Positions 1-1,957 of a stretch of DNA of 30,738 nucleotides are shown here, piece after piece. Position 1 is the first letter of the stretch; each line of letters opens with the position of its first letter. The notes beneath the pieces are model-generated. The model saw only the letters and a list, made by a program, of their open reading frames with translations. It searched no databases and had not been told where the DNA came from. The position numbers and the translations under genes are program-made. The stretch comes from Promethearchaeota archaeon (GTDB lineage: Archaea > Asgardarchaeota > Thorarchaeia > Thorarchaeales > Thorarchaeaceae): the NCBI GenBank assembly GCA_014728035.1, contig WJMJ01000125.1, positions 1 to 30,738 on the forward strand. Reading direction: 5' to 3'.

Positions 1-14
1 AGGAGTTTATATGG

Positions 15-147
15 AGTGATCTGGAATAGAGATTTGGTCTAAAGACACAGGATCCCTGACCAGGACCGAGCCAGTTCCAGTACCGTTTCTGGACGGACAA
101 AGCTCGGGTGTCTAAGTTTGTCCAACTAAAAATGAACGGTAATCACT
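15..147 (+). ncRNA. Candidate structured RNA (three-way junction), family unknown
   Basis: Contiguous helices 15-20/142-147, 21-26/75-80 and 81-87/135-141; inner stems 35-39/58-62 and 95-101/117-123. G-U extensions favour the + strand. No Rfam family recognised. Confidence 0.45.
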
Positions 148-149
148 TG

Positions 150-260
150 CTATTTCTTTATTTTTTCAGGATGCTGTTCCATTGCATGCTTCTTCATCTC
201 TTCTTTTGAAGAGAAGGTAGCATCACAAAACTTACACTCGAGTGGTTTCTTATCAGTCAT
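150..260 (-). CDS. 36-aa single C2H2 zinc-finger microprotein (not in ORF track)
   Basis: Translated by hand: MTDKKPLECKFCDATFSSKEEMKKHAMEQHPEKIKK*. C-x2-C-x3-F-x8-H-x4-H spacing; GTGAT RBS-like sequence just upstream. Confidence 0.8.
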   Translation of the reverse strand: MTDKKPLECKFCDATFSSKEEMKKHAMEQHPEKIKK

Positions 261-364
261 AGTATCACAATTAAATATAGTTAATTGTGCTATATTAAAG
301 GTGTGGTAAAGTAGTAGGCGACATATCCATTAGGAGTTACGTAATTACAAGAACGAAGAAAATA

Positions 365-1957
365 TTGGGAGACCATTACGTGGCACGTCGGTATAAAGAA
401 TTGCTTGATTGTCCTGCTGATAACCAATGGTTCAAGAGAATTCAAAGAGCTCTCGCATTTCTGATATGGCGTTTTGTACATATCAAGAAATATACAAAGA
501 TCTACGTTTTGGAAAAATCAGGTAGGGATGATGAGGGGGCAGAAATCAAAAGAAGTCTACTTGAAAAGAACCCGATATTTCTAGGTGATATGACCCATAT
601 TCAGACACTGGTATTAGAGTTTATGTACATACCAGATTATCCTACAGTGAATTATGCTACTAACCTTATGATACAATATGGTAATACTCCAGGACTAGAA
701 CATTTCCAAGCATTGGGATATTTATTCAAAGGAATAGTTCAATATCGAACTGGTGACTATGAGAAATCAATTGCAAATATCAAAAAAGCACTGCAATTAT
801 CGTGTGAAAACAGAGATCTACAAGCAGTAGTTAGGTCAATGTTCTCCTTAGCTCAGATACACTATAGTCAAAACGAGATGGCAAAAGCTGTTGTTCTCTT
901 TAAGAAGTGTATTGAAAGAAACAAAAGTCTAGGAAATTTCAACAAGTTATTGGCAACGTATTCTGAATTGAGTGCAGCTTACCTTGCTCTAGGAAAATAC
1001 AAATCCGCTAGGAAGCTGATTGAATTTTGTCTTCAACATGAAAAAAGACTCGACCAAGACAATATCGCGTTTCTTTACTATGATCTTTCAGAATTACAAA
1101 TGATGACTGGAAATCTTGTTGATGCAAGAAGTGCATTAGAAAGGTGTGCTTCAGCTGCAAAACGAGCTGGAAATACAGTTATGCAATATGCGGCAATGTC
1201 ATTACAGTCAAGACTTGAAGAATTCTCTGGTAACCTTTCAAAAGCAATTGAACTACTTAGAAAGAGCATCGATTTGCAAAAAGAACTAGGGACAACCGAA
1301 GTATTGATCGATAACATGTGTCAACTTGTTCATCTTTATATCCTACAAAACGACTTGAATCGAGCTTCAGACACCCTACTGGCAATTGAGCTAAATCCCA
1401 ACATCAGCTCGATTGAAGAGTTTGAAGCTCAACAGAAATATTATCGCGCAGAACTTGCTCAATCTCAAGATAAACATGAAGAAGCTTTGGAAATCTTGGA
1501 TGAAGTTGAAGAGATTTTTCAGGATTTGGATGATACTCTCATGCTCACTTTGATTCAACTCACAAGAGTTGAAAGCTTTGTTGCTCTAAAAAGAATAGAC
1601 GAAGCTGATGAGAAGATTTCTGAAATTATCAAGAATGCTATTGAAAATGGTGCAAAAGTTTCTGAAATTCGTGGACGAATAATTCAATCCGCTCTGTATC
1701 TTCGGAATCATGATTTAAGAAAAGCTAGGAGCTCATCTGAATTAGCAATCAAAGCGGCAAGAACTGCTGGATATGAAACCTTTGCAGAAGATGCTCATGA
1801 TATAATGACCAGAATTGGCAATCTGGAAAGTGCATTGTCCCACTATGATGAAGTCGACCGTATCCAAGAGGATACTAAAAAAGACGAAATCTCTCTTGAT
1901 GACATCAAAGCGTATATTGCTCGTGCAAAATCGATAGCTTCTGCAGTTGATTCATAG
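365..1957 (+). CDS. Tetratricopeptide-repeat (TPR, MalT-like) protein
   Basis: Repeated helical units such as KGIVQYRTGDYEKSIANIKKAL, LAQIHYSQNEMAKAVVLFKKCI and LSAAYLALGKYKSARKLIE. TTG start uncertain. Confidence 0.8.
   Translation: MGDHYVARRYKELLDCPADNQWFKRIQRALAFLIWRFVHIKKYTKIYVLEKSGRDDEGAEIKRSLLEKNPIFLGDMTHIQTLVLEFMYIPDYPTVNYATNLMIQYGNTPGLEHFQALGYLFKGIVQYRTGDYEKSIANIKKALQLSCENRDLQAVVRSMFSLAQIHYSQNEMAKAVVLFKKCIERNKSLGNFNKLLATYSELSAAYLALGKYKSARKLIEFCLQHEKRLDQDNIAFLYYDLSELQMMTGNLVDARSALERCASAAKRAGNTVMQYAAMSLQSRLEEFSGNLSKAIELLRKSIDLQKELGTTEVLIDNMCQLVHLYILQNDLNRASDTLLAIELNPNISSIEEFEAQQKYYRAELAQSQDKHEEALEILDEVEEIFQDLDDTLMLTLIQLTRVESFVALKRIDEADEKISEIIKNAIENGAKVSEIRGRIIQSALYLRNHDLRKARSSSELAIKAARTAGYETFAEDAHDIMTRIGNLESALSHYDEVDRIQEDTKKDEISLDDIKAYIARAKSIASAVDS

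What the first reader, a model, noticed from the sequence alone, without database searches (positions are those of the whole stretch)
15..147. Perfect three-way-junction RNA candidate with a second pairing option
Seen: three helices abut with no unpaired junction bases (AGTGAT/ATCACT, CTGGAA/TTCCAG, TACCGTT/AACGGTA). Each arm has an internal loop and a terminal stem. The 12 nt at 102-113 (GCTCGG GTGTCT) are complementary to CCGAGC (66-71) and AGACAC (43-48). This gives either long-range kissing or an alternative nested fold with hairpin 76-80/89-93. G-U extensions (14/148, 27/74, 33-34/63-64, 88/134) favour the + strand. It ends 2 nt from the convergent zinc-finger gene's stop codon. Inference: an unknown ncRNA or conformational switch.
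Basis: partly seen in the sequence, partly recalled or inferred. Interest (0 to 1): 0.7.

Follow-up and report, generated by a model that had tools for sequence, protein, structure and literature searches.

The report
Gene-less IS607 mini-transposon carrying guide RNA
The flagged "three-way-junction RNA" is the right-hand three quarters of a 186-base, protein-free jumping element present about 34 times in this Asgard (Thorarchaeota) genome. It carries the folded guide-RNA scaffold of a TnpB nuclease encoded elsewhere in the genome, so it is a known kind of selfish element and not a new cellular RNA.

Summary

- **Element:** the full unit is 186 bp, inserted after a target GGGT and ending ...AATGAACGGT at window 140. 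The genome holds 34 right ends of the family with distinct flanks (33 gene-less, one behind tnpB), many at contig ends.
- **Origin:** its left end matches the left ends of two IS607-type elements in the same genome. One encodes an intact IS607 serine transposase. The other encodes a 713-aa TnpB/Cas12f-like nuclease and also shares the right end.
two of its three helices (15-20/142-147 and 21-26/75-80) pair at chance level across copies.
- **Conserved fold:** Across 82 distinct copies from 17 genomes, six helices are kept, five with compensatory changes. One pairs a hairpin loop with the scaffold's last six bases.
- **Promoter:** a TATA-like box sits 19-21 nt upstream of the first helix.

Best reading: a gene-less IS607 mini-transposon expressing a TnpB omega-RNA, with the flank (window 141 to about 160) as guide. 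Earlier agents of this scan reached the same reading on other copies. It is a new member of a known kind, of modest interest.

The parts
1..140 (+). Right-hand 140 bp of a 186-bp gene-less IS607-derived element. The contig starts inside it; the missing 46 bp of left end plus the target GGGT are seen in other copies.
   Evidence: more than 50 matches in the genome, many at contig ends. Full copies include C95:23198-23387 and C121:15045-15234.
6..13 (+). TATA-like box TTTATATG, the predicted archaeal promoter of the RNA.
   Evidence: the consensus YTTATATA is kept 19-21 nt upstream of helix P1 in 71 distinct copies whose neighbouring bases vary. Promoter function is inferred.
33..64 (+). P1 hairpin (33-39 with 58-64). 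Its loop holds GACAC (44-48).
   Evidence: all 7 pairs show changes on both sides; 85% of cells are paired.
44..112 (+). PKa: loop GACAC 44-48 pairs with GUGUC 108-112 (pseudoknot).
   Evidence: 94% paired; the pair 48/108 is C-G in 30 copies and U-A in 16. This helix was not part of the model used for aligning.
66..107 (+). P2: CCGAGC 66-71 with GCUCGG 102-107, enclosing P3.
   Evidence: 96-97% paired; 4 of 6 pairs have changes on both sides.
76..93 (+). P3 hairpin (76-80 with 89-93). Its loop carries ACCGUU.
   Evidence: 97.6% paired; the closing pair is C-G in 52 copies and U-A in 27. In autonomous elements this stretch encodes the TnpB C-terminal tail SSAVPGRT.
82..140 (+). PKb: P3 loop ACCGUU 82-87 pairs with the scaffold's last six bases AACGGU 135-140.
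   Evidence: 90-95% paired, but nearly invariant, with only one-sided A/G changes. It is compatible with pairing but not proven by covariation.
95..123 (+). P4: GGACAAA 95-101 with UUUGUCC 117-123. At the DNA level, 109-125 is an inverted pair of TTGGACA-like motifs that mirror the two direct copies in the left end (candidate transposase sites).
   Evidence: 84% paired; the pair 96/122 is G-C in 63 copies and U-A in 10; the left-end motif TTGGACAnnnTTGGACA is shared with the IS607 elements on C25 and C16.
141..160 (+). Predicted guide segment (AATCACTTGCTATTTCTTTA). This is unique flank and overlaps the 3' end of the convergent zinc-finger gene.
   Evidence: This is where omega-RNA guides lie (PMC10691335; 10.1101/2023.11.20.567912); the flank is unique and has no second site next to GGGT. 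The guide length is assumed.
150..260 (-). Neighbouring 36-aa C2H2 zinc-finger ORF. It is not part of the element, which ends 9 nt beyond its stop codon.

Best explanation
Window 1-140 is the right part of a 186-bp non-autonomous IS607-family element.

Shown:
- It is a dispersed repeat with 33 gene-less insertion sites in this genome. It sits after a target GGGT and ends in ...AACGGT, with no terminal inverted repeats and no target duplication.
- Its left end is homologous to the left ends of two elements in the same genome. One carries an intact IS607 serine transposase. The other carries a 713-aa TnpB/Cas12f-like nuclease with an intact RuvC triad, and its right end is homologous too.
- The last ~65 nt of the element is the same module that overlaps and follows the 3' end of tnpB genes across the family.
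- The stretch from about 33 to 140 keeps a pseudoknotted RNA structure, through compensatory changes in five of its six helices.

Inferred by analogy with characterised IS605 and IS607 systems:
- A TATA box inherited with the left end starts transcription at the base of P1.
- The roughly 105-nt scaffold plus 16-20 nt of flank is bound in trans by the large TnpB.
- When the serine transposase excises the element scarlessly, the complex cuts the restored site (GGGT plus the guide match). Recombination with a sister chromosome then puts the element back.
- The occupied site escapes cutting because the right end reads CGGT rather than GGGT.
For: - **Repeat and boundaries:**. Three empty-site reconstructions support the boundaries. 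At C121:79700 and C4:10725 the left GGGT completes a host hairpin ACCCC-NNNN-GGGGT. A copy nested in an older copy restores the older one in register when the 186 bp are removed.
- **tnpB link:** in 16+ loci the module follows ...HADVNAARNI....
- **Partner genes in the same genome:** PF07282 at 1.4e-15 and NF040570 at 3e-19 for the 713-aa protein; NF033518 IS607 transposase at 167 bits, above its cut-off of 110. The left ends align.
- **Nuclease intact:** D488, E597, D692 and two CxxC pairs are invariant in 16 homologues. Foldseek's top hits are Cas12f at 1.8e-11 and TnpB at 3.6e-7.
- **Structure:** 91.4% of cells paired against 80.9% in shuffles; covariation 0.289 against 0.124 (0 of 500 shuffles reach it); slid controls 0.079 or less. 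The result is reproduced on a structure-blind alignment.
- **Promoter box:** conserved at a fixed distance from P1.
- **Co-occurrence in 24 related genomes:** both present in 14, module only in 2, TnpB only in 2, neither in 6.
- **Literature:** the IS607 CboIStron has a TGGG TAM, a GG core, a scaffold ending UCGG and a loop-to-3'-end pseudoknot (10.1101/2023.11.20.567912). Gene-less elements and standalone omega-RNAs act in trans (PMC10055086, PMC10691335).
Against: - There are no expression data, so transcription, the 5' and 3' ends of the RNA, TnpB binding and cleavage are all inferred.
- PKb, the hallmark pseudoknot, is almost invariant, so covariation cannot confirm it.
- The 5' half of the scaffold (P1, P2, PKa) is not clearly alignable with the tnpB-embedded sequence of the autonomous copies. 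That the large TnpB accepts the mini-element's scaffold is therefore an assumption.
- No Rfam family matches.
- The usual archaeal TATA-to-start spacing puts the predicted start 1-4 nt inside P1.
- One related genome has more than 20 copies but only broken tnpB fragments were found.
Confidence: 0.85

Rival explanations
1. It is a plain non-autonomous transposon whose conserved sequence serves only transposition (transposase binding sites, recombination core). Any RNA made from it has no function, and TnpB does not use it.
For: The TTGGACA-like repeats in both ends look like serine-transposase sites. The last 65 nt and PKb are conserved as sequence rather than through covariation. One relative has many copies without an intact tnpB.
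Against: P1, P2, PKa, P3 and P4 change sequence yet keep pairing, with many G-U pairs that would be A-C on the other strand. IS607 moves as double-stranded DNA (10.1101/2023.11.20.567912), so base pairing within one strand has no role in transposition. A promoter-like box is kept at a fixed distance.
Confidence: 0.08
2. The copies are domesticated guide RNAs or antisense regulators that act on host genes. Here the target would be the zinc-finger gene whose 3' end the transcript overlaps.
For: The predicted guide/read-through region (141-166) is antisense to the 3' end of the zinc-finger ORF. Gene-less copies outnumber intact tnpB about 33 to 1.
Against: Every guide matches only its own flank. 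None has a second site next to GGGT. About 20 copies are 98% or more identical, which points to a recent burst. Neighbouring genes differ between copies. The TnpB keeps its catalytic residues, unlike domesticated TldR-type proteins.
Confidence: 0.04
3. One reading: a stand-alone novel ncRNA or riboswitch-like switch built on a perfect three-way junction at 15-147.
For: The minimum-energy fold of the truncated sequence gives this junction, with z = -2.16.
Against: Two of the three helices are not conserved: 41% and 45% paired, equal to the controls. One strand lies in unique flank. The 5' strands lie between the TATA box and the predicted start. The locus is one of 34 right ends of this repeat family.
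Confidence: 0.02

Closest known systems
IS607-family TnpB omega-RNA, as characterised for the Clostridium botulinum CboIStron (10.1101/2023.11.20.567912)
   Same: - Uses a serine-recombinase TnpA.
- Has no inverted repeats and no target duplication.
- Has short repeated motifs within about 40-60 bp of each end.
- Has a G-rich target with a GG core (TGGG there, GGGT here).
- The right end and scaffold finish in CGG (UCGG there, ACGGU here), one base different from the target motif.
- The scaffold has stem-loops, and a hairpin loop pairs with the scaffold's 3' end.
   Different: - The host is an archaeon.
- The partner nuclease is about 713 aa rather than about 400 aa.
- There is no group I intron.
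- This is a natural, gene-less 186-bp copy with its own promoter-like box, whereas the 'mini-IS' in that paper is a laboratory construct.
- The pseudoknot loop belongs to the middle hairpin, not the first.
- Extra long-range pairings (P2, PKa) are present.
PATE-like gene-less IS200/IS605 derivatives that encode omega-RNAs (Geobacillus stearothermophilus; PMC10055086), and standalone omega-RNAs of OMEGA systems (PMC10691335)
   Same: These are protein-free, multi-copy elements that keep only the transposon ends and the guide-RNA scaffold. They depend on a transposase and a nuclease encoded elsewhere in the genome.
   Different: Those elements belong to the IS605 family: a Y1 transposase, single-stranded DNA hairpin ends and peel-and-paste movement. 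Here the ends match an IS607 serine-recombinase element, and only a 36-residue Y1 fragment was found in the genome.
RAGATH-18-derived reRNA of bacterial IS607 TnpB (ISFba1; PMC11061315)
   Same: It is the guide RNA of an IS607 TnpB, with three stem-loops and two pseudoknots. Its scaffold lies largely outside the coding sequence.
   Different: There is no Rfam match even at E <= 1. Its scaffold is 187 nt and its TAM is AGGAG or GAGGG. Its partner protein is 330-433 aa.

Membership tests
Non-autonomous (gene-less) IS607-family element | Ends homologous to those of an element encoding an IS607 serine-recombinase TnpA | tested here: met
   The left end aligns with the left ends upstream of the C16 transposase (NF033518, 167 bits) and of the C25 TnpA remnant. 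The right end matches the C25 tnpB right end.
Non-autonomous (gene-less) IS607-family element | No terminal inverted repeats, no target-site duplication, and insertion at a GG-containing target with the same core at the right end | tested here: met
   The junction logos give GGGT at the left junction and AACGGT as the last six bases of the element. Three empty-site reconstructions leave no gain or loss of bases.
Non-autonomous (gene-less) IS607-family element | Many copies at different sites, with no open reading frame | tested here: met
   There are 34 distinct right flanks. The element is 186 bp, and window 1-140 holds only chance ORFs of 33 aa or less.
Non-autonomous (gene-less) IS607-family element | Excision and integration by TnpA supplied in trans | not testable with these tools
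   This needs an excision assay.
TnpB omega-RNA (reRNA) | The scaffold lies at the transposon's right end, overlapping or following the 3' end of tnpB, with the guide in the flank | tested here: met
   The same 65-nt module directly follows ...HADVNAARNI... and encodes the TnpB tail in 16+ loci. It ends exactly at the element boundary.
TnpB omega-RNA (reRNA) | Conserved secondary structure, including a pseudoknot to the scaffold's 3' end | tested here: met
   Six helices are 84-98% paired, five of them with compensatory changes. The 3'-end pseudoknot is 94% paired but has no changes on both sides.
TnpB omega-RNA (reRNA) | A cognate TnpB with an intact RuvC site in the same genome | tested here: met
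   The C25 ORF of 713 aa has D488/E597/D692 invariant across homologues.
TnpB omega-RNA (reRNA) | The RNA is expressed, bound by TnpB and directs TAM-dependent cleavage | not testable with these tools
   No transcriptome or biochemistry is available.
RAGATH-18 (Rfam family; IS607 reRNA core) | Match to the Rfam covariance model | tested here: not met
   No hit at gathering score on the window, nor at E <= 1 on four element-bearing loci.
PATE (IS200/IS605 palindrome-associated element) | Ends and transposase of the Y1 (HUH) IS200/IS605 type | tested here: not met
   Only a 36-residue Y1_Tnp fragment was found, at a contig end. The ends match the IS607 elements instead.
   Helices 15-20/142-147 and 21-26/75-80 pair in 41% and 45% of cells, equal to the shuffled and slid controls.

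The most novel reading that the evidence does not exclude
The gene-less copies, each with its own promoter and outnumbering the single intact nuclease gene about 33 to 1, may be the main carriers of a Thorarchaeota-specific RNA-guided system. In that system an unusually large (about 713 aa) TnpB/Cas12f-like enzyme would use a compact (about 105 nt) scaffold with several pseudoknots that matches no described RNA family. That would make it an undescribed TnpB/omega-RNA lineage in the closest archaeal relatives of eukaryotes, with a scaffold that has evolved free of coding constraint.
Probability: 0.25. Interest if true: 0.5.

Novelty: new member of a known kind. Interest (0 to 1): 0.3.

Why it matters
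- **It removes a false lead.** The "perfect three-way junction" is an artefact of a contig that breaks inside a repeat. The same repeat explains many contig ends in this assembly.
- **It gives a testable anatomy.** The data define a natural IS607-derived guide-RNA mini-element in an Asgard archaeon: exact boundaries, target motif (GGGT against CGGT at the right end), a promoter-like box, a covariation-backed pseudoknotted scaffold and candidate partner genes. That is enough to test at the bench whether a large archaeal TnpB works with a short trans-encoded guide.
- **It is not a new principle.** Gene-less omega-RNA elements are already described.

Tried and rejected
- **tRNA/tmRNA:** none found.
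- **Rfam:** no match at gathering score or at E <= 1.
- **IS200/IS605 hypothesis:** I first took the element for an IS200/IS605 derivative (PATE) with hairpin ends. I dropped this when the partner element proved to carry a MerR-HTH serine recombinase (IS607 transposase) and only a Y1 fragment was found.
- **Empty site for the window's own copy:** I looked in three relatives. Only the zinc-finger ORF matched, at 74% identity, which is too diverged to use.
- **Built-in terminator:** T5+ runs downstream are not enriched (5 of 35 against a 10% background).
- **Second genomic targets of the guides:** none lie next to GGGT.
- **P1/P2/PKa in the tnpB coding sequence:** I tried to trace these helices in the autonomous copies. 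A GCACG/CGTGC hairpin and an ACATCA/TGATGT pairing appear in some, but too few sequences are available to judge.
- **Energy z-scores:** uninformative, because the real fold is pseudoknotted.

Full report
**Observation.** RNAfold on window 10-155 returns the same three-way junction. Its energy is -43.3 kcal/mol against -34.8 +/- 3.9 for dinucleotide shuffles (z = -2.16), and 8 of 200 shuffles fold as well. The fold is therefore real in silico but only weakly better than chance. No tRNA and no Rfam family lies in the window.

**The region is a truncated copy of a dispersed repeat.**
- Searching the window's own genome (4.33 Mb, 173 contigs, with the window at C96:1-30738) using window 1-400 gave 41 matches to bases 1-140 only. 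blastn and nhmmer raised this to more than 50.
- Many matches lie exactly at contig ends. About 15 contigs begin or end with bases 1-140 followed by unique DNA. About 17 end with the first ~89 bases preceded by 50 further conserved bases and then unique DNA. The assembler evidently broke at this repeat.
- Internal copies (for example C95:23198-23387 and C121:15045-15234) give the full unit: GGGT, then 46 bp missing from the window, then window 1-140 ending ...AATGAACGGT.
- With the missing 5' part restored, the minimum-energy fold changes and z drops to -1.38.
- The genome holds 34 right ends with distinct flanks: 33 gene-less and one behind a tnpB gene. About 20 are 98% or more identical. Older subfamilies sit at 83-88% and 72-77% identity.

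**What the repeat is.**
- The last ~65 nt (window about 76-140) recur in many copies in 16 of 24 genomes of the same family. They were not found in 16 more distant genomes of the phylum.
- In 16 or more loci the sequence just upstream of this module is coding and reads ...C..C...HADVNAARNI..., the RuvC-III motif of TnpB. The module itself encodes the C-terminal tail SSAVPGRT and then continues to AACGGT.
- In the window's genome, C25 carries such a gene. It is a 713-aa ORF matching Pfam Cas12f1-like_TNB (1.4e-15) and NCBIfam guided_TnpB (3e-19, below that model's curated cut-off).
- That ORF is preceded by a 123-aa MerR-HTH remnant and by a left end, GGGGT-TGCGGGCTGATAC...TTTGGACAAAGTTGGACA, that aligns with the repeat's left end.
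- C16 carries an intact IS607 transposase (NF033518, 167 bits against a cut-off of 110; MerR HTH plus resolvase domain). It has the same kind of left end and is followed by a fragment of a second large tnpB at the contig end.
- Only a 36-residue Y1-transposase fragment was found. The repeat is therefore a gene-less derivative of an IS607-type TnpA/TnpB transposon.
- The organism is a Thorarchaeota MAG: the closest named relatives of the TnpB are Candidatus Thorarchaeota records.

**Boundaries and target.**
- Across 54 copies with both ends, the left junction reads (A/G/T, never C)-GGGT and the right end reads AATGAACGGT. The flanks are otherwise unconserved.
- There are no inverted termini and no duplication.
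- At C121:79700 and C4:10725 the left GGGT completes a host hairpin ACCCC-NNNN-GGGGT. In the first case the T-run of that terminator follows the element.
- A copy on C166/C99 sits inside an older, decayed copy. Removing the 186 bp after GGGGT restores the old copy in register. This assumes the two contigs are the two sides of one locus.
- GGT is shared by the target and the right end, so the crossover point within it cannot be fixed.
- The pattern parallels the IS607 CboIStron: TAM TGGG, a strict GG core and a scaffold ending UCGG (10.1101/2023.11.20.567912). Here the target GGGT and the right end CGGT differ by the same G/C position, which would spare the occupied site from cutting.

**RNA structure.**
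- I collected gene-less copies from 17 genomes and aligned 78 with MAFFT (A1). I then built a covariance model from three nested helices and realigned 83 hits (A3).
- Six helices were counted on 82 distinct rows:

| Helix | Window positions | Cells paired | Variation |
|---|---|---|---|
| P1 | 33-39/58-64 | 85% | all 7 pairs change on both sides |
| PKa | 44-48/108-112 | 94% | one pair is C-G in 30 copies, U-A in 16 |
| P2 | 66-71/102-107 | 97% | 4 of 6 pairs change on both sides |
| P3 | 76-80/89-93 | 98% | closing pair is C-G in 52 copies, U-A in 27 |
| PKb | 82-87/135-140 | 94% | one-sided changes only |
| P4 | 95-101/117-123 | 84% | one pair is G-C in 63 copies, U-A in 10 |

- Overall, 91.4% of cells are paired against 80.9% in shuffles. 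The covariation score is 0.289 against 0.124, reached by 0 of 500 shuffles. Sliding the partners by 1-3 columns gives 0.079 or less.
- PKa, P4 and PKb were not in the aligning model.
- The structure-blind alignment gives the same picture except for P1, which MAFFT misaligns.
- G-U pairs are common, which places the RNA on the + strand.
Only 81-87/135-141 (= PKb) is kept.
The junction is not.
- Covariation cannot say whether P4 forms together with P2+PKa or alternates with them.

**Promoter-like box.** A box YTTATATA (window 6-13) is kept 19-21 nt upstream of P1 in 71 distinct copies whose surrounding bases vary. With the usual archaeal spacing (my own knowledge: a TATA box centred near -26/-27), transcription would start at the base of P1, around window 33-37. 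This is an inference, and the spacing would clip one to four outer P1 pairs, which are also the least well paired.

**Partner nuclease.**
- Sixteen homologues of 700-740 aa from the family align at 40-57% identity. D488, E597, D692 and two CxxC pairs are invariant.
- A profile of the alignment hits Cas12f (1e-7) and TnpB (9e-7) over residues 470-696 only.
- An AlphaFold model (pLDDT 78, pTM 0.70) matches Cas12f best (1.8e-11). It also matches ISDra2 TnpB, ISFba1 TnpB and Fanzor2.
- In the 24 related genomes, the module and TnpB co-occur in 14. The module occurs alone in 2, TnpB alone in 2 (fragments), and neither in 6. These genomes are kin, so this is not an independent statistic.

**Mechanism proposed.** The element is mobilised in trans by the IS607 transposase, binds the large TnpB in trans and uses its flank (window 141 to about 160) as guide. 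This would let the nuclease cut the restored empty site after excision and so promote reinsertion by recombination. That function has been demonstrated for IS605 and IS607 elements (PMC10055086; 10.1101/2023.11.20.567912) and is inferred here.
- Each guide matches only its own flank, which fits a selfish role rather than a host-regulatory one.
- No terminator is built in. In the window copy a T6 run at 161-166 happens to follow.

**Comparison and novelty.**
- Gene-less IS605 derivatives with omega-RNAs, and standalone omega-RNAs acting in trans, are already described (PMC10055086, PMC10691335).
- IS607 reRNAs with several stem-loops and two pseudoknots are also known (PMC11061315), but this RNA does not match RAGATH-18 or any other Rfam model.
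- The element is a new member of a known kind.
- Earlier agents of this scan reached the same reading on other copies in this genome and in other Thorarchaeota. I reached the TnpB and IS607 reading before consulting those notes and re-tested the claims here.

Noticed in passing
G000 C25:210078-212216 (L043:2576-4717, minus strand): A 713-aa TnpB/Cas12f-like nuclease, nearly twice the usual TnpB size, is conserved at 700-740 aa in many genomes of the family. Only residues about 470-700 resemble known TnpB or Cas12f by sequence. The N-terminal ~470 residues are largely helical in the model and have no sequence match.
   Followed up: partly
G000 C25 (L043:4707-5078, minus strand) and C16:29418-30029: The TnpA next to the intact large tnpB is truncated to a 123-aa MerR-HTH stub. 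The only intact IS607 transposase found sits on C16, next to a contig end that holds a fragment of a second large tnpB (66% identity).
   Followed up: partly
L043:1871-1945 (C25, minus strand): A tRNA gene (Rfam, 56.6 bits) lies about 600 bp downstream of the right end of the C25 IS607 element.
   Followed up: no
window 150-260 (minus strand): A 36-aa stand-alone C2H2 zinc-finger ORF. A 74%-identical stretch exists in a genome of another genus of the family (G022:C230:3776-3908), so it is probably a real small gene.
   Followed up: partly
G013 (related genome): This genome has more than 20 gene-less copies of the module, but only short tnpB fragments with stop codons were found. Either the guide elements have been orphaned or the nuclease gene is missing from the assembly.
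   Followed up: no
G000 C166:1-330 and C99:79950-80138: A younger copy of the element appears inserted into an older, decayed copy at that copy's own GGGGT, in the PKa 3' strand region.
   Followed up: partly
G000 C71:12196-12215 and C163:16663-16682: Two independent copies have right flanks sharing GGGCGGTTA. This suggests either insertion into paralogous sequences or a wider target preference.
   Followed up: no
G000 C16:30029-31714 (minus strand): A 562-aa open frame with no Pfam match lies between the IS607 transposase and the tnpB fragment, on the opposite strand, where the 5' part of tnpB would be expected.
   Followed up: no
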